Source: a virus (taxonomy: Duplodnaviria > Heunggongvirae > Uroviricota > Caudoviricetes). From it: a DNA stretch of 28,514 bases. Location: IMG/VR virus record IMGVR_UViG_2534682329_000006; one strand, 5' to 3'. The position numbers and the translations under genes were made by a program. Positions 12,315 through 24,122 of the stretch are shown here, one piece after another (the first letter of the stretch is position 1; the number at the start of each line of letters is the position of its first letter). Below the pieces are notes generated by a model. It saw only the letters and a program-made list of their open reading frames with translations. It searched no databases and had not been told where the DNA came from.

Positions 12315-12350
12315 AAGCGCCTGCATTTGCAGGCATTCTATTATTCTTTA
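12315..12350. terminator. Bidirectional rho-independent terminator between convergent Q and the 98-aa ORF
   Basis: Hairpin GCCTGC-ATTT-GCAGGC (12319..12334) flanked by T-rich sequence on both strands, directly after the Q stop codon. Confidence 0.55.
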
Positions 12351-12637
12351 ATTAGTGCCCCCCATACGGAGTCCATATCAACTTCCTCAACTACAATGCA
12401 AATGGAGCAATGAACATGACCATCAGCAATGCGTAGGTAATTGAAAAGCCTTGTTTTCACCCGCCCATCAAATTGAGCACGCCCACCCTTATTCGTAATT
12501 GTTACGTAGTCTCCCACATTTGGAAGCATCAAAAGCGAGTTGTCTTCTGAATTACACCCTACAACCTCTCCATCATCATCAGGGCGATCCTGACCTTTGC
12601 GCATATATTGAAAATCATAGCTATAAGTAGTTTTCAT
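12341..12637 (-). CDS. Hypothetical small protein (98 aa) between Q and cos
   Basis: Open reading frame only; no motif recognised; weak Shine-Dalgarno; AT-rich relative to flanking core genes. Confidence 0.35.
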   Translation of the reverse strand: MKTTYSYDFQYMRKGQDRPDDDGEVVGCNSEDNSLLMLPNVGDYVTITNKGGRAQFDGRVKTRLFNYLRIADGHVHCSICIVVEEVDMDSVWGALIKE

Positions 12638-13031: not shown

Positions 13032-13736
13032 TCACCGAACGGATACTTTTGCATAAATCAAAGGCCTATCCGAAGAGCCATTTTTACGTACGACCACTCC
13101 ACTGACATCATGGTTTTTACTTAGATCACGTAATGCGGCGCACAATGCCTTGTTGACATATCCGAGATGATTGTCGTTTTTCGTAACCAATATGGCCAGC
13201 GGATCAACCGTATTGGTATCTTCATTCCGCAATATGACTTCATCACCAATTGATATCTCATCAAGCGCTAGACGCCCTTCCTTGATCATGTGCCTCGTTC
13301 CAGCGACCTCCATGACGTAATCGAAAGGTGGCCGAACAGAAGACAAGTCTGGGACAAAATAAAAACCATCACTAGCAACTTTTCCGCCAGTACATGCGAG
13401 CAAAACGAAGTCATTCTCTCTAAAATCAGCAGGAAGACGAAACGTCAGCAAGTAATCGTCAAAATCTTCTCTTTTCCTGGAGGGTAACCTTCTTGAAAAG
13501 GTTTGCATAACGTCTTTGCGATGAGTCGCAACTTTTATATCAAAAGCAGGAAAACCGCGAAAGCCGTTATCCCTAGCTTTAGCAAAATCTTTGCTATCAG
13601 TAAGATAATTAAACTCGTAGCCTTCAGACTCATCTTGAAGAAGCTCACCAACGACATAGCGAGAGCCTCCGTCAACCGGTTGCCATGTCAGTAAGAGCCT
13701 ACTGGGCATGGGAATGTTTTCTATTAAGATAGTCAT
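13032..13736 (-). CDS. HIRAN-domain protein (unknown N-terminal domain plus C-terminal HIRAN-like domain)
   Basis: C-terminal segment (…GDEVILRNEDTNTVDPLAILVTKNDNHLGYVNKALCAALRDL…) fits the HIRAN pattern (L.RE..N..D.NAI.V....LGY…A..L); start overlaps the kinase stop (ATGA coupling). Confidence 0.6.
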   Translation of the reverse strand: MTILIENIPMPSRLLLTWQPVDGGSRYVVGELLQDESEGYEFNYLTDSKDFAKARDNGFRGFPAFDIKVATHRKDVMQTFSRRLPSRKREDFDDYLLTFRLPADFRENDFVLLACTGGKVASDGFYFVPDLSSVRPPFDYVMEVAGTRHMIKEGRLALDEISIGDEVILRNEDTNTVDPLAILVTKNDNHLGYVNKALCAALRDLSKNHDVSGVVVRKNGSSDRPLIYAKVSVR

Positions 13737-14644
13737 GAAGTAACACCTTTAATCAGTTCAATACGCATGTTTGTTACACGAACAATCCATGCAGCACGTT
13801 CTCTAGTCAGCGGAACAGGGCAGTTTATTTCCGTCAACTCCGCAAAAGTTGACTCCCAAAAATCATGGTTCAAAAGAGCCAGTTTTTCAGCTACCCGCTG
13901 TTTTAATGCTTCTTTTTTATCACAAAGTTCTTTGATGAACTCTAAATGACCTAATCTCTGATACTCATCTTTGCCCAGAGTCTTACGCAAATGATGCCTT
14001 CCCCGGCCAACATGCTCCCTGAGTCTATGATCGGTCCAATCGGCAACATGCTCCGGAAAGCGTTCGTAACATAAGCTCGTACCATTATCGAAAAATGGTG
14101 CAAGCTGACACTCGCTGGCTAAAGGTGAAAAGACAAACCCCCAATTTTCTTGATGTCTATCTGTATTACCTATCACAGCGTCAAAGAGAGCCATGTCCTC
14201 CAACCACTCAACATAGTCAACTTTAAGAGCTTTCGCGATAATCCTCAGCCCTTCAAGGGAATGCTGAGCTCCTTTCTCGCGATCAAAATTTGGATCTCTT
14301 CGGACAAAGTAATCACCAGCGGGAGCAAATTTCTCATAATCTTTATGATGAAACCACTCAATGAGGGCCCCGCAAAACGTATGCCCCAAATCATTAGTCT
14401 TTACCGATGGAACTGCTTTGGGGACATCAAAACCAAGCTTCAATCCAATCCTGTAGGCAACGATCTCACACCAAAATTGATCTGGATACTTTTTAATACT
14501 TCTCTTAAAAAGATACGGCCACGATGCTTTGATACCATGGGGTGCTACATCAGGGGAAATAACCAATGCCTTAGAGCGAGCACCAACAGGATATTGTGCG
14601 AAAACATCTAGCTCAGTCCAATTGGTTACATCTAAGCAATCCAT
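13733..14644 (-). CDS. HipA-family serine/threonine kinase, short form (303 aa, lacks the HipA N-terminal subdomain)
   Basis: Catalytic-loop motif FDAVIGNTDRHQENWGF matches the HipA/CtkA signature (…IGNTD.H..N…); about 300 aa versus about 440 for E. coli HipA. Confidence 0.7.
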   Translation of the reverse strand: MDCLDVTNWTELDVFAQYPVGARSKALVISPDVAPHGIKASWPYLFKRSIKKYPDQFWCEIVAYRIGLKLGFDVPKAVPSVKTNDLGHTFCGALIEWFHHKDYEKFAPAGDYFVRRDPNFDREKGAQHSLEGLRIIAKALKVDYVEWLEDMALFDAVIGNTDRHQENWGFVFSPLASECQLAPFFDNGTSLCYERFPEHVADWTDHRLREHVGRGRHHLRKTLGKDEYQRLGHLEFIKELCDKKEALKQRVAEKLALLNHDFWESTFAELTEINCPVPLTRERAAWIVRVTNMRIELIKGVTS

Positions 14645-14659
14645 AGCTAAGTCCTATAT

Positions 14660-15220
14660 TTATTTTTTATTTAAATTCATATAGATATGAGAAACCAGTG
14701 CGATCTGAAATAAAACATCATCGAATGCTGTGTGCCTGATGCCAGTGAACTTTTTGTCAGCATGAGAAAAAATTCCTTTGCTTTCACCAAGCGCTAAGAT
14801 GGTTCTGACGTCAAGAGTATCTCTGAATGACCATGGGCACTCCAGACCTGCCTGTGACAGGGCATGATGCATGATAGTGCAGTCGAACTCTTTCCCGTTT
14901 CCCCACACTTTTACTCGGCCATTACGATTATGAAGAACAAACGCCACAAATTCATTCAGAACGTCTAAAAGGTCCTTAGTGCCACCAAAATTTTCGTTTT
15001 TAGCTTCAGAACTTTGATACATCCACCACTTTACAGTGGAGGGGGCAATGGTTCTGCCTGCTTGTTCATGATCAAGCGAAATAACTTGATAGAAACCCGG
15101 ACCAACCTCGCCAGTCTCCGGCACGAAGAAAGCCGCACCAACCGAAAGGATATAAGCCGTTTTTTCAACATCCAATGTTTCTATATCTAACATTACATGA
15201 TTCATAACAAGCATTTGCAA
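14660..15220 (-). CDS. DEDDh-type (DnaQ-like) 3'-5' exonuclease
   Basis: Exo I motif MLDIETLD near the N-terminus and Exo III motif HTAFDD near the C-terminus; about 185 aa. The track start is TTG; in-frame ATGs follow at 15214, 15205 and 15193. Confidence 0.7.
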   Translation of the reverse strand: MQMLVMNHVMLDIETLDVEKTAYILSVGAAFFVPETGEVGPGFYQVISLDHEQAGRTIAPSTVKWWMYQSSEAKNENFGGTKDLLDVLNEFVAFVLHNRNGRVKVWGNGKEFDCTIMHHALSQAGLECPWSFRDTLDVRTILALGESKGIFSHADKKFTGIRHTAFDDVLFQIALVSHIYMNLNKK

Positions 15221-21151: not shown

Positions 21152-21784
21152 ATGATACATGTAAAGGTTGGAGAGAATACAGGGGGAAGAGAGGCTATCC
21201 ATAGACTAATGGCAGCCTATGATTTCAAGTCCAGACAGCAACTTTGCGATCACTTAGGCGCATCAAAAAGCACCATGGCAAACAGATACTTAAGAGATAG
21301 TTTTCCTGCAGAGTGGGTGATTCAGTGCGCCTTGGAAACAGGAGTTTCTTTACTGTGGCTAACCACCGGACAGGGGGAGCCAGGTTCAAACATTGAACCC
21401 CAAAAAAATATCAATTCCGTGAACTCCAGCAAGGTTATACCTCTTTCTGAACTAGTATCTCCTGAAATTGACAAGGCGACTCTCAACGGTGGTTTATTGA
21501 TCGATGCTGGAAAAGCAATCATTGATAGCAGCATACTCCCCTCAGACTCAAGCAACCTACTGCTGGTGACTACTTCTGGTGATTCTTATTTAATAGATCG
21601 CAACCAAACACCACCAGTAAATGGTATGTGGTTAGTCGATATCGACGGGATAAAAAGCATTGTTAAATTGACTCGACTCCCGGGAAACAAATTAGTAGTA
21701 CATCAGGATGATTCATCGTTTGAGTGTGGCCTAGATGACATTGAGGTAGTAGGCCGCGCACTGAAAATCATTAAGAGCCTTTGA
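21152..21784 (+). CDS. cI: CI immunity repressor (phage 186 type)
   Basis: N-terminal region (…YDFKSRQQLCDHLGASKSTMANRYLR…CALETGVSLLWLTTGQGE…) follows the 186 CI pattern; AGGA Shine-Dalgarno; immediately upstream of int. Confidence 0.75.
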   Translation: MIHVKVGENTGGREAIHRLMAAYDFKSRQQLCDHLGASKSTMANRYLRDSFPAEWVIQCALETGVSLLWLTTGQGEPGSNIEPQKNINSVNSSKVIPLSELVSPEIDKATLNGGLLIDAGKAIIDSSILPSDSSNLLLVTTSGDSYLIDRNQTPPVNGMWLVDIDGIKSIVKLTRLPGNKLVVHQDDSSFECGLDDIEVVGRALKIIKSL

Positions 21785-21785
21785 T

Positions 21786-22802
21786 ATGACCATCAGAAAA
21801 CAGCCGAACGGAAAATGGTTGTGTGAGTGCTATCCCAATGGACGCAATGGTAAGCGCGTGCGTAAGCAATTTGCTACGAAAGGCGAAGCCATTGCTTTTG
21901 AAAGCTTCACAATGGAAGAAGTGAATAAAAAACCGTGGTTGGGTGAAAAGGATGATCGGCGACGCCTATCAGAATTAATTGAGCTTTGGTATTCCCTGTA
22001 TGGTCAGACACTCGCAGACCCCAAGCGCCTCATGGCGAAACTTAGAATTATCTGTAATGGTCTAGGCGACCCCATCGCCTCAGAACTGACAGCCGGTGAC
22101 TTTACGAAATACCGCGAAGCACGGTTAAAAGGTGACGTTCGTAACGAAGACGGCACACTAATGTCGCCAGTAAAACCACGCACGGTGAATCTTGAGCAAC
22201 GTAACCTATCATCGGTTTTCGGCACATTGAAAAAACTAGGCCACTGGTCAGCACCAAATCCTCTCGCCGGGCTGCCAACATTTAAAATCGCTGAGGGGGA
22301 ACTGGCGTTCCTGACCTCGGAAGAAATTAAACGTCTGCTAGATGCCTGCGCTGATTCTCAAAACCCCAGTCTGCTTTTGATTGCAAAAATATGCCTGGCC
22401 ACCGGCGCACGCTGGAGTGAAGCCGAAAACCTGCAGGGCCATCAGTTATCTAAATACCGCATCACTTATACCAAGACGAAGGGTAAGAAAAACCGCACCG
22501 TGCCGATATCTCAAGATCTGTATGACGAACTCCCCAAGAACAGAGGGAAGCTATTCACCCCGTGCAGAAAAGCCTTTGAACGAGCAGTAAAGCGAGCTGG
22601 CATCGAGCTGCCAGAGGGCCAATGCACTCACGTGCTACGTCATACATTCGCCAGCCATTTTATGATGAATGGCGGAAACATACTGGTGCTACGCGATATT
22701 CTGGGCCATGCCGATATAAAAATGACGATGATCTATTCTCATTTTTCACCAGAACACTTAGAAGATGCAGTAACTAAGAATCCTTTAAATTATATTGAGT
22801 GA
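21786..22802 (+). CDS. int: Tyrosine integrase (P2-type site-specific recombinase)
   Basis: 338-aa protein with the catalytic H-x-x-R box (HVLRHTFASH) and C-terminal tyrosine region (IKMTMIYSHF); last core phage gene before att. Confidence 0.88.
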   Translation: MTIRKQPNGKWLCECYPNGRNGKRVRKQFATKGEAIAFESFTMEEVNKKPWLGEKDDRRRLSELIELWYSLYGQTLADPKRLMAKLRIICNGLGDPIASELTAGDFTKYREARLKGDVRNEDGTLMSPVKPRTVNLEQRNLSSVFGTLKKLGHWSAPNPLAGLPTFKIAEGELAFLTSEEIKRLLDACADSQNPSLLLIAKICLATGARWSEAENLQGHQLSKYRITYTKTKGKKNRTVPISQDLYDELPKNRGKLFTPCRKAFERAVKRAGIELPEGQCTHVLRHTFASHFMMNGGNILVLRDILGHADIKMTMIYSHFSPEHLEDAVTKNPLNYIE

Positions 22803-23869
22803 AAATCATGTTAAGTGATACTTGTTATACAGTGATTTATATTACAGCAATCGTTTTATTAGTATTTATTACAATAGTAAAAAAATGGTACATACTTGAT
22901 AAAAGAAATTTATTTCGTCAGAAATTATTTTGGATTTCAGTTTTAACACCTTTATTTTCCTTTATCTATTTTGTTTTTTTCACATGGTGGGGAAAAGAAC
23001 CAGTACTCTCCGCACATGGCTATTCAAGATTTTACGAAATAAGCAAATTCCCTCTACTATTGCTAGCTAGTGCAGTTCCTTTGGCTTCGATCGTCAACAA
23101 TATACATCGCACTATACAAACCGAAGCTCAGATCAACACCGCTGAAACGAAAAATGCAGTCGATAGATATTTAGCACATGAGAAAAACTTTATTGAGAAA
23201 ACAAAGGAAATATTCGCCTACAATCTTCAAAGCGCGAGAGGCTCAGATGGAAACCTCATTAAATTCAATGGCGAACCAAATATCACTTTGTTTACAGCAG
23301 ATGAAATTAAAATTTCCAACCCATATCTTTTATATACAAAAATATACAACAAATCAACTATAGAGACCACATCTAACTTCACCGCAAACCCTGATTTTTT
23401 AGTGCAATTAAAGGAGTACTTAAACACAATTAATAATACTCTGTCGGTTCAACACTCTATAGATGAATATAATCCATTAAGTTACATGATTCGACTTAAC
23501 ACTTTGTCATATAATACAGCCTCGTTATTAGACCTGATATGTACATCCCCCATATCTCATGTATACTGTTTGATAAAATATGATGGGTATCAATTAAAAA
23601 CATTTACACTTGAAGAACAAGTATTCGCCGATATTTTAGAAATATCATATCTTCTATCAAGAAAACTAATTCGTTTGATATATAATGAAGATATACCACA
23701 TTACGACAACATTTATAATTACTTATATGTTGGTAAGTTGAGGTTTAAATTCAGAAAACACGCCTATTCTTTACAAGCATTTTCTTCGCAGGAATGGGCT
23801 GATTACGTTTCTGAAGCACTAACTCTAGTTCCTAACGAAGTTGGCGGCACTTTGGCGGCAGCGCATTAA
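22799..23869 (+). CDS. Hypothetical membrane protein, AT-rich cargo gene between int and att
   Basis: About 355-aa ORF with two N-terminal TM helices then an N/Y/I/K-rich domain with no recognised motif; visibly AT-rich; start (GTG at 22799 or ATG at 22808) overlaps or abuts the int stop. Confidence 0.55.
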   Translation: MKIMLSDTCYTVIYITAIVLLVFITIVKKWYILDKRNLFRQKLFWISVLTPLFSFIYFVFFTWWGKEPVLSAHGYSRFYEISKFPLLLLASAVPLASIVNNIHRTIQTEAQINTAETKNAVDRYLAHEKNFIEKTKEIFAYNLQSARGSDGNLIKFNGEPNITLFTADEIKISNPYLLYTKIYNKSTIETTSNFTANPDFLVQLKEYLNTINNTLSVQHSIDEYNPLSYMIRLNTLSYNTASLLDLICTSPISHVYCLIKYDGYQLKTFTLEEQVFADILEISYLLSRKLIRLIYNEDIPHYDNIYNYLYVGKLRFKFRKHAYSLQAFSSQEWADYVSEALTLVPNEVGGTLAAAH

Positions 23870-23955
23870 AAATTAGTAAAATGGACAAACACTACATAAC
23901 AATAACGCACTGTTTTTAAATGCAAACTACTGTTTTTGCTATAGTAAAAATGGTA

Positions 23956-23992
23956 TGTAGGAATTTCGGACGCGGGTTCAACTCCCGCCAGC
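23956..23992 (+). other. att core: fragment matching the 3' end of ssrA (tmRNA), marking the prophage/chromosome junction
   Basis: TGTAGGAATTTCGGACGCGGGTTCAACTCCCGCCAGC matches the 3'-terminal T-arm/acceptor region of E. coli tmRNA as I remember it, but the upstream 300+ nt of ssrA and the final TCCACCA are absent, so it is a partial copy, not the gene. Confidence 0.6.
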
Positions 23993-24122
23993 CCAATCAT
24001 GATTGGACGGTGTAAGGACAACACCAACAAAAACAGGAAGTTAGAAGTCTCAGCAAAACACCGACCAGACGGTGAGGAGACATAAAAGGATACGCAAAGG
24101 AGCCGCGGCTCCTGGTAACATG

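What the first reader, a model, noticed from the sequence alone, without database searches (positions are those of the whole stretch)
22799..23869. AT-rich membrane-protein cargo gene wedged between integrase and the att site
Seen in sequence: an approximately 355-codon ORF begins at the int stop codon and ends about 85 nt before the ssrA-like att core. It is strikingly AT-rich compared with int and encodes two N-terminal transmembrane helices followed by an Asn/Tyr/Ile/Lys-rich domain with no motif I recognise. Established knowledge: the P2 integrase normally abuts attP; genes inserted at prophage termini are typically morons conferring lysogenic conversion, superinfection exclusion or abortive infection. 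Inference: a horizontally acquired accessory gene of unknown function, co-expressed with the lysogenic cI-int transcript.
Basis: partly seen in the sequence, partly recalled or inferred. Interest (0 to 1): 0.6.

Follow-up and report, generated by a model that had tools for sequence, protein, structure and literature searches.

The report
Membrane-protein cargo gene in prophage hotspot
This is a real, selected gene for an uncharacterised inner-membrane protein, carried as a swappable cassette between the integrase and the attachment site of a Fels-2-like E. coli prophage, where sibling phages carry known anti-phage genes, so it is a good but untested candidate for a new phage-defence protein.

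Summary
The ORF is real: 22799 (GTG) or 22808 (ATG) to 23869, 31% GC against 49% for int. It belongs to a large family with no assigned function (PHROG 17460; at least 1060 clusters at 50% identity; no Pfam, NCBIfam, PADLOC, PDB or BFVD match). The prophage is Fels-2-like and sits in ssrA. In Fels-2 itself int is followed after 5 nt by two direct repeats (TGGCGGCA), which I read as arm-type Int sites, then the att core. In the window about 1.04 kb is inserted exactly between int and those repeats. The ORF's last 8 codons (GGTLAAAH) and its stop codon are the repeat DNA itself. All 12 sampled E. coli sibling prophages fill this slot: this family (3), anti-phage dCTP deaminase (3), dCTP-deaminase-domain protein plus ThyX (1), RES-like proteins (4), another membrane protein (1). 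The protein has three N-terminal hydrophobic helices, not two. It has a nearly invariant membrane-proximal helix (NNIHRTIQTExQI…KN..D…H.K) and a hypervariable, probably cytoplasmic α/β domain. The core is under purifying selection. The most likely role is lysogen-expressed phage exclusion or abortive infection. This rests on context and architecture only and is not demonstrated.

The parts
21152..21784 (+). 186-type CI repressor, first gene of the lysogenic operon
   Evidence: Pfam Phage_CI_repr 5.4e-31 and Phage_CI_C 6.4e-28
21786..22802 (+). Tyrosine integrase of the Fels-2 / SopEPhi type (ssrA-specific)
   Evidence: Pfam Int_N 1.8e-29 and Phage_integrase 1.6e-24. 92% identical to Fels-2 Int and 91% to SopEPhi Int.
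22799..23869 (+). Cassette ORF of 356 aa from GTG 22799, or 353 aa from ATG 22808; residue numbers used here count from the ATG
   Evidence: PHROG 17460, E=1.9e-43. 103 and 1060 homologues. Purifying selection.
22811..22879 (+). Hydrophobic helix 1 (residues 2-24)
   Evidence: Kyte-Doolittle peak 2.59; AF2 helix 2-24
22922..22987 (+). Hydrophobic helix 2 (residues 39-60), preceded by a Lys/Arg-rich loop (residues 25-38)
   Evidence: Across the family loop 1 has net charge +1.4 and loop 2 has -0.5.
23039..23095 (+). Hydrophobic helix 3 (residues 78-96), with Pro82 conserved in 100% and Pro91 in 90% of 218 family sequences
23096..23185 (+). Family signature on the helix that continues from helix 3: NNIHRTIQTExQI..x.KN..D...H.K (H100, R101, T102, Q104, Q108, K115, N116, D119, H124, K126 each conserved in at least 96% of 218 sequences)
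   Evidence: It is the most conserved stretch, at about 3.2-3.3 bits per column.
23198..23839 (+). Hypervariable α/β domain (residues 131-344), predicted cytoplasmic; the only conserved island is P172-x-x-L175-Y176
   Evidence: Where the core is 82% identical to the query this domain is 39%; where the core is 57% it is 18%. The order of secondary-structure elements is the same in two divergent subfamilies.
23841..23860 (+). Direct repeat TTGGCGGCA-N2-TTGGCGGCA, taken as arm-type Int-binding sites of attP; it encodes the protein tail GGTLAA
   Evidence: The repeat sits at the same position relative to the core (repeat start ~132 nt upstream of GGGTTCAA) in most of the ~80 loci carrying this Int clade, whether inside or outside an ORF. 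It is also present on the other arm beside intact ssrA (L001 2190 and 2201). It follows the int stop directly in Fels-2. A different repeat occupies the same place where Int is only 64-69% identical.
23955..23992 (+). attR core: a 38-nt copy of the ssrA 3' end
   Evidence: Identical to the 3' end of intact ssrA in L001. No complete tmRNA is present in the window.

Best explanation
The ORF is phage cargo. It is one of several interchangeable, AT-rich cassettes that sit between the int stop codon and the arm-type Int sites of attP in Fels-2-like (186/P2-type) prophages integrated in ssrA.

It encodes an inner-membrane protein with three N-terminal transmembrane helices (N-terminus out, C-terminus in). 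A nearly invariant polar helix emerges from the third transmembrane helix, followed by a hypervariable cytoplasmic α/β domain of about 220 residues.

I propose that it is transcribed in the lysogen as the third gene of the cI-int message and protects the lysogen against other phages. In this model the variable cytoplasmic domain recognises a phage-derived cue. The conserved membrane and membrane-proximal core then acts, by perturbing the membrane or blocking a membrane step, to abort or exclude the infection.

Shown here:
- the gene is real and under purifying selection;
- it is a cassette, with defined boundaries;
- its slot is a variable hotspot that also carries a RefSeq-annotated anti-phage gene;
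- divergence is strongly asymmetric between the core and the C-terminal domain.

Inferred only: topology, co-transcription, the defence role, and the sensor/effector division of labour.
For: - **Cassette status.** Fels-2 provides an empty site, and the window is colinear with it from the repeats to the core.
- **Slot occupancy.** All 12 sampled E. coli prophages with this int carry something in the slot: this family in 3, 'anti-phage dCTP deaminase' in 3, dCTP-deaminase-domain protein plus ThyX in 1, RES-like proteins in 4, another TM protein in 1. Those measured (10 cassette genes) are 32-35% GC.
- **Published context.** The int-att hotspot is reported in PMC13586616.
- **Phage origin.** The repeats occur on both arms, so the gene lies inside attP and travels with the phage.
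- **Gene order.** cI-int-gene is seen in 78 of 80 viral contigs and in Citrobacter, Klebsiella, Salmonella and Enterobacter genomes, with no conserved partner gene.
- **Selection.** Core pN is 0.08-0.13 against pS 0.67-0.92.
- **Asymmetric divergence.** The order of secondary-structure elements is the same in a subfamily whose C-terminal part BLAST no longer aligns to the query (alignment ends at query residue 194).
- **Topology.** The charge bias of the loops supports N-out/C-in. 186 of 208 members have no hydrophobic segment after the motif.
- **Expression.** The start overlaps or adjoins the int stop, and no promoter or terminator is predicted between the genes.
Against: - There is no experimental datum.
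- There is no similarity to any characterised defence, exclusion or toxin protein: PADLOC gave none, Pfam and NCBIfam none, and PDB and BFVD nothing significant by sequence or fold.
- Guilt by association in a hotspot is only probabilistic.
- Synonymous sites are saturated, so positive selection on the variable domain cannot be shown. Its variability could reflect relaxed constraint.
- The third hydrophobic segment is short (about 16-19 residues, with two prolines). If it does not span the membrane, the variable domain is periplasmic and an entry-blocking (Sie) mechanism becomes more likely.
- The window allele has Val at position 56, where 88% of the family has Gly.
Confidence: 0.5

Rival explanations
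1. Superinfection exclusion. The protein sits in the inner membrane and blocks genome entry of incoming phages, in the way of P22 SieA, T4 Imm, HK97 gp15 or lactococcal Sie2009. The variable domain would contact the ejection or tape-measure proteins of particular phages.
For: It is a membrane protein encoded in the lysogeny module next to int, which is the classical place for Sie genes (established knowledge, recalled from memory). It is a single gene with no partner. Its hypervariable domain would suit recognition of variable phage proteins.
Against: At 353 aa it is much larger than known Sie proteins. The charge bias puts the variable domain in the cytoplasm. No known Sie family was matched in Pfam, PHROGs or PADLOC, and tblastn against 50,697 phage records found only two weak hits.
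Confidence: 0.22
2. A non-defence lysogenic-conversion or phage-physiology factor: a membrane protein that alters host envelope, transport or stress physiology, or that serves the prophage's own life cycle.
For: Prophage-end cargo genes include many non-defence functions. One sibling cassette, dCTP-deaminase-domain protein plus ThyX, could equally be nucleotide metabolism. No defence model matches this protein.
Against: There are no hits to Gtr, Oac or other envelope-modifying enzymes or to transporters. The few Acyl_transf_3 and DctQ hits are weak, E>=4e-4, seen in 2-4 of 74 members and attributable to transmembrane composition. Extreme divergence of one domain alongside a frozen core is more typical of conflict systems. 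The same slot repeatedly carries a RefSeq-annotated anti-phage gene.
Confidence: 0.15
3. A selfish addiction or toxin module, or a decaying remnant, that gives no benefit to host or phage.
For: It is AT-rich. All six polymorphisms among near-identical alleles are nonsynonymous. The window allele carries G56V at a conserved glycine.
Against: The core is under strong purifying selection across deeply diverged alleles. Full-length copies occur in many genera. Six of six nonsynonymous changes is not significant (P about 0.2 by my estimate). V56 is also present in an 82%-identical allele.
Confidence: 0.08
4. A random open frame in AT-rich DNA, not a gene.
For: None beyond the absence of annotation.
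Against: 356 stop-free codons at 31% GC. More than 1000 homologous clusters. pN is far below pS in the core. The AF2 model is confident (pLDDT 78.5, and 85-94 in most of the C-terminal domain).
Confidence: 0.01

Closest known systems
PHROG 17460 (phage protein family, function unknown)
   Same: Direct sequence membership: E=1.9e-43 over residues 10-294.
   Different: The family has no name, function, Pfam model or solved structure, so membership says nothing about mechanism.
Other cassettes of the same int-attP slot: anti-phage dCTP deaminase, and the RES-like 397-403-aa protein (orfY of SopEPhi, gp01 of RE-2010, 'putative RES protein' of phage Cartapus)
   Same: Same position, same low GC, same flanks (int on the left, arm repeats on the right), single-gene units. 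Some also read into the arm repeats and end in ...GGTLAAE[HS].
   Different: Unrelated in sequence (the family HMM gives no hit). They are soluble enzymes or other folds, not 3-TM proteins.
Membrane effectors of abortive-infection systems (lambda RexB, CBASS and Pycsar TM effectors, retron Ec48 2TM protein)
   Same: Works-like analogy only: a small bundle of transmembrane helices that could collapse membrane integrity on activation, encoded by prophages or defence islands.
   Different: No significant similarity; the only hits are PycTM, 4TM effector and KwaA at E of 2e-3 to 9e-3 in 1-2 of 74 members. Those effectors need a separate sensor or signal-generating partner, whereas this is a single gene with its own large soluble domain.
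Superinfection-exclusion membrane proteins (P22 SieA, T4 Imm, HK97 gp15, lactococcal Sie2009)
   Same: Prophage-encoded, expressed in lysogens, membrane-located, and often next to the int/repressor genes (recalled from memory).
   Different: Much shorter proteins. No sequence match was found. The variable domain here is predicted to be cytoplasmic.
Fused sensor-effector single-protein defences such as CapRel(SJ46) (recalled from memory)
   Same: A conserved 'business' half joined to a hypervariable half that could set phage specificity; prophage-borne single gene.
   Different: No homology. CapRel is a soluble pyrophosphokinase toxin. No catalytic domain is recognisable here.

Membership tests
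PHROG 17460 / the 'NIHRTIQT' 3-TM family defined here | Significant full-length profile match, plus the signature H100-R101-T102-x-Q104 ... Q108 ... K115-N116 ... D119 ... H124-x-K126 after the third hydrophobic helix | tested here: met
   PHROG E=1.9e-43. Every signature residue is present in the window protein and each is conserved in at least 96% of 218 relatives.
Prophage hotspot cassette (int-attP slot of Fels-2-like phages) | Lies inside the attP boundaries; absent from an otherwise colinear relative; replaced by unrelated genes in siblings; atypical GC | tested here: met
   Arm repeats occur on both arms. Fels-2 is an empty site. Twelve of 12 siblings are occupied, by five unrelated kinds of cassette. 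GC is 0.31 against 0.49 for int.
Known anti-phage defence systems (PADLOC-DB v2.0.0) | Significant match to a system component model | tested here: not met
   No hit for the window protein. Among 129 relatives scanned there were only E>=1.6e-3 hits to transmembrane models and AbiEii, in 1-2 members each. Databases newer than 2023, DefenseFinder and DefensePredictor could not be run.
HEPN RNases (Pfam HEPN_RiboL-PSP) | R-x(4-6)-H catalytic motif in a four-helix bundle, and a profile score above the gathering threshold | tested here: not met
   There is one hit in 55 members (P0093, 25.1 bits, below the 28.4 cut-off). Its RNAIAH motif is not conserved even within its own subfamily and is absent from the window protein.
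Superinfection-exclusion proteins (SieA, Imm, gp15, Sie2009) | Sequence relationship to a characterised Sie protein; block of DNA entry | tested here: inconclusive
   Sequence: PHROGs gave only family 17460, with no function assigned, and there were only two weak tblastn hits in 50,697 phage records. The functional criterion cannot be tested with these tools.
O-antigen / envelope-modifying conversion genes (GtrABC, Oac), typical int-att cargo in P22- and Sf-type phages | GtrA, glycosyltransferase or acyltransferase-3 domains; many transmembrane helices | tested here: not met
   No such Pfam hit for the window protein. Acyl_transf_3 appears only at E=1.2e-3 in 2 of 74 relatives. There are only 3 transmembrane helices.

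The most novel reading that the evidence does not exclude
The family would be a new class of single-protein, membrane-anchored abortive-infection or exclusion system with an orphan fold. The frozen core (TM2, TM3 and the H-R-T-x-Q-T...K-N...D...H helix) would be a previously undescribed membrane-acting effector or gate. The hypervariable cytoplasmic domain would be a directly phage-sensing specificity module, exchanged between Fels-2-like phages as a cassette bounded by int and the attP arm sites.
Probability: 0.3. Interest if true: 0.7.

Novelty: new variant of a known kind. Interest (0 to 1): 0.45.

Why it matters
If the family is a defence or exclusion system, it adds a widespread single-gene membrane mechanism with no recognisable relatives to the bacterial immune repertoire. 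It has at least 1060 clusters at 50% identity and was found here in Enterobacterales (including Xenorhabdus) and in one Pseudomonas genome.

Natural allelic series (conserved core, hypervariable domain) are ready-made material for mapping what sets phage specificity.

The precise anatomy of the slot also explains how such cargo is swapped and stacked. Cassettes lie between the int stop and the attP arm sites, and ORFs borrow their last codons from the arm sites. That anatomy gives a simple rule for harvesting further candidates from Fels-2-like prophages.

If the gene has no phenotype, the finding reduces to an ordinary hypothetical cargo gene.

Tried and rejected
- **Profile and structure searches.** Pfam, NCBIfam and PADLOC on the query and on 129 relatives gave only sub-threshold hits driven by transmembrane composition (DUF3810, DctQ, PycTM, KwaA). 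PDB profile searches with three alignments found nothing beyond coiled-coil and 14-3-3 noise.
- **HEPN lead.** The hit in P0093 was followed up and rejected because the motif is not conserved.
- **C-terminal tail.** I first took the conserved tail GG.LAAEH for a degron or ssrA-tag mimic. I rejected this because the same DNA occurs outside ORFs, at the end of unrelated proteins, and directly after int in Fels-2. It is attP arm DNA.
- **Arm region as a decayed copy of the int 3' end.** This is not supported in the window (local alignment score 12 against 13.7±2.3 for shuffles). A true hybrid junction exists only in two-cassette loci (L102).
- **Positive selection on the variable domain.** It cannot be assessed because synonymous sites are saturated.
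- **Literature.** Searches for the PHROG number and the RefSeq protein accessions returned nothing.
- **ypjA.** A suspected truncation of the neighbouring ypjA gene was a listing artefact; the frame is open to the end of the window.
Full report
**Observation.** The + strand carries an open frame from 22799 to 23869. The GTG at 22799 overlaps the int stop codon (GTGA). An in-frame ATG lies at 22808 and is the start used by RefSeq for the identical gene in five complete E. coli genomes. In homologues the start overlaps the int stop by 4 nt, so translational coupling is plausible with either start.

GC falls from 0.47-0.51 in int to 0.27-0.36 in the ORF and rises again at the att core. The stop is 85 nt upstream of a 38-nt copy of the ssrA 3' end (23955-23992). 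ARAGORN and Rfam find no complete tmRNA in the window, so this is the attR-side duplicate. There are three N-terminal hydrophobic helices rather than two. The ORF runs into attP rather than ending short of it (see below).

**Is it a gene?** Yes.
- One search returned 103 homologues from E. coli, Salmonella, Klebsiella, Enterobacter, Citrobacter, Cronobacter, Pectobacterium, Serratia, Erwinia, Rahnella and others, all called 'hypothetical'.
- An exhaustive profile search of 1.84 billion cluster representatives found 1060 at E<=1e-3 and 222 at E<=1e-30.
- Relatives also occur in Pseudomonas chlororaphis and Xenorhabdus.
- Between deeply diverged alleles, the conserved core (residues 27-130) has pN 0.08-0.13 against pS 0.67-0.92. 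This is clear purifying selection on the protein.
- AlphaFold2 gives a confident model (mean pLDDT 78.5, and 85-94 over most of the C-terminal domain).

**Context.** The window is a 186/P2-type prophage. Upstream lie CII and Apl/Rha-like genes on the minus strand, then cI (21152-21784) and int (21786-22802) on the plus strand. The host autotransporter gene ypjA/ehaD lies downstream. Int is 92% identical to that of Fels-2 and 91% to that of SopEPhi. Both are recalled from memory to integrate into ssrA; the Fels-2 record's att core matches the ssrA 3' end.

In the Fels-2 record the int stop is followed 5 nt later by TGGCGGCATTTTGGCGGCAGGGCAC, and the att core follows from there. The window aligns colinearly with Fels-2 from its own copy of that repeat (23841-23860) to the core. 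It carries about 1.04 kb extra between int and the repeat. This is an empty-site versus filled-site pair, and it shows that the ORF is an inserted cassette.

**The repeat and the protein tail.**
- The element TGGCGRCA-N3-TGGCGRCAG.GCATTAAAAA lies at a fixed position (repeat start ~132 nt upstream of the GGGTTCAA of the core) in most of the ~80 loci whose Int is at least about 90% identical.
- A second copy in the same orientation lies about 48 nt beyond the end of intact ssrA at the other prophage end (L001 2190 and 2201).
- Loci whose Int is only 64-69% identical carry a different repeat at the same place (TGTCCACA-like).
- Two direct repeats on each arm that co-vary with the integrase are what is expected of arm-type Int-binding sites. 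This is an inference. The resemblance of the second motif to the P2 arm consensus TGTGGACA is from memory.
- In the window the repeat is read as the last codons of the ORF (V-GGTLAAAH-stop).
- The same tail closes many otherwise unalignable family members. It also closes unrelated proteins in the same slot, namely a 222-aa membrane protein ending CSGGTLAAES and a truncated RES-like protein ending SGGTLAAEH.
- In other loci the preceding gene stops just before the repeat.
- The 'conserved tail' is therefore attP DNA borrowed as coding sequence, not a protein motif. It marks the right-hand boundary of the cassette.

**The slot is a hotspot.** Of 219 complete E. coli genomes with this int, I inspected 12 taken at even steps down the ranking. 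All 12 have cargo between int and the repeats:

| Cargo | Loci (of 12) |
|---|---|
| This family | 3 (one of them followed by a RES-like gene) |
| 'Anti-phage dCTP deaminase' (RefSeq name) | 3 |
| dCTP-deaminase-domain protein plus ThyX | 1 |
| RES-like 397-401-aa protein, or a fragment of it | 4 |
| Another membrane protein | 1 |

All cassettes measured are 32-35% GC. SopEPhi (orfY), RE-2010 and phage Cartapus carry the RES-like cassette. A 2026 survey reports int-att as a minor defence hotspot of P2-like phages, holding 3% of their systems (PMC13586616).

Among 80 viral contigs that encode a relative of the ORF, 78 show cI-int-gene; in the other two the match lies within ~850 nt of the locus start, so the upstream region is not held. 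No partner gene is conserved. One Serratia copy stands alone in a different island, and the Xenorhabdus copy is next to another integrase.

**The protein** (numbering from the ATG).
- Helices are at residues 2-24, 39-60 and 78-96. The third continues without a break to about residue 135.
- Across 218 relatives the loop before helix 2 is net positive (+1.4) and the loop after it net negative (-0.5). 186 of 208 sequences have no hydrophobic segment after the signature.
- By the positive-inside rule this gives N-out/C-in, with the large domain in the cytoplasm. This is an inference.
- Conservation peaks at residues 71-126 (about 3 bits per column). H100, R101, T102, Q104, Q108, K115, N116, D119, H124, K126 and P82 are each present in at least 96% of sequences. 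The spacing 100-104-108-115-119-126 puts most of them on one face of the helix (my reading).
- Beyond residue 130 conservation collapses, apart from P172-x-x-L175-Y176. Relatives whose core is 82% identical to the query are 39% identical in the C-terminal domain. At 57% core identity the C-terminal domain is at 18%.
- A second AF2 model, of a subfamily whose C-terminal part BLAST no longer aligns to the query (alignment ends at query residue 194), has the same order of secondary-structure elements. The domain has therefore diverged in place rather than been swapped for a different fold.
- Int stays 90-96% identical while the neighbouring ORF drops to 33-50%. Synonymous sites of the ORF are saturated. 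Old allelic lineages are therefore being exchanged between closely related phages.

**Comparison with known families.**
- Only PHROG 17460 (unknown function) matches.
- Pfam, NCBIfam and PADLOC give nothing significant for the query or for 129 relatives.
- A sub-threshold HEPN_RiboL-PSP hit in one member depends on an RNAIAH motif that is not conserved in its own subfamily and is absent from the window protein.
- tblastn against 50,697 phage records finds only two weak hits.

**Interpretation.** The best-supported reading is a lysogen-expressed, phage-borne membrane protein that excludes or aborts infection by other phages. The reasons are:
- its place in a slot that repeatedly carries a RefSeq-annotated anti-phage gene;
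- its single-gene, AT-rich cassette nature;
- the frozen core joined to a hypervariable domain, as expected of a conflict system;
- its position as third gene of the lysogenic operon, with no predicted promoter or terminator in between.

I favour a cytoplasmic sensor with a membrane effector, that is abortive infection, over a block to DNA entry (Sie), because of the predicted topology. That preference rests on one short transmembrane segment, and nothing here is experimental. Non-defence conversion and selfish or decaying readings remain possible. A chance ORF is excluded.

**Verdict.** The kind of thing, a hotspot cargo gene of a P2-like prophage, is known. The family itself is uncharacterised and has no detectable structural relatives, which makes it a reasonable candidate for a new defence protein. 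Interest is moderate.

Noticed in passing
window 23841-23860; L001 2190-2208; L110 (Fels-2) 2058-2076: The direct repeat TGGCGGCA-N3-TGGCGGCA occurs on both sides of the ssrA att core and co-varies with the integrase clade, so these are probably arm-type Int sites. Several unrelated cassette genes read through it, which gives them all a ...GG(T/K)LAAE(H/S) C-terminus.
   Followed up: yes
L102 4040-4110 (also L096/L006, end of the 375-aa gene): In two-cassette loci the first gene ends in a hybrid of the arm-like repeat fused to a copy of the int 3' end. Protein P0089 therefore ends ...LAAEHLEDVVTKNPLFNL, matching the Int C-terminus (alignment score 46 against 14±2 for shuffles). This suggests cassettes are stacked by recombination between the arm element and the int 3' end.
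   Followed up: partly
window 13032-14644 (- strand): The classical gpA-gpQ hotspot of this prophage carries a HipA_C-like kinase (13733-14644) and a HIRAN-domain protein (13032-13736). They match the PADLOC candidate system PDC-M03A/B (E=6e-34 and 6e-37).
   Followed up: partly
window 14660-15220 (- strand): An Rv2179c-like 3'-5' exoribonuclease gene (Pfam E=8e-51) lies next to the hotspot. A 98-aa ORF at 12341-12637 has no match.
   Followed up: no
L096 5699-6892; L097 4527-5732; L098 4534-5727; L102 4127-5338; phages SopEPhi orfY, RE-2010 gp01, Cartapus gp33: A 397-403-aa soluble protein is the commonest alternative cargo of the same slot. It has only a faint RES-domain hit (E=0.05), although it is annotated 'putative RES protein' in phage Cartapus. 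It is another uncharacterised defence candidate.
   Followed up: partly
L001 2250-4516 (E. coli NMBU-W12E19): In the genome with the closest copy of the ORF the prophage is a remnant (VgrG/Pvc8-family and cII pseudogenes). It has a reverse-transcriptase gene (RVT_1, E=2e-21) and an IS421 next to ssrA, yet cI-int-ORF is intact.
   Followed up: no
window 22808-23866 compared with L001, L002, L015-L017: Near-identical alleles differ at six sites, all nonsynonymous, while cI plus int differ at 1 of 1651 nt. The window allele has Val56 where 88% of the family has Gly.
   Followed up: partly
window 23660-23633 (- strand): The best sigma-70-like match in the region (10 of 12 positions) is antisense and lies inside the ORF. 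This is probably a by-product of AT-richness; promoter-like sites are not enriched over shuffles.
   Followed up: no
window 23988-24005: After ...CCCGCCAGC the attR copy reads CCAATCATG, where intact ssrA reads TCCACCA. Sibling loci show several variants at this point, so the crossover or remnant end is polymorphic.
   Followed up: no
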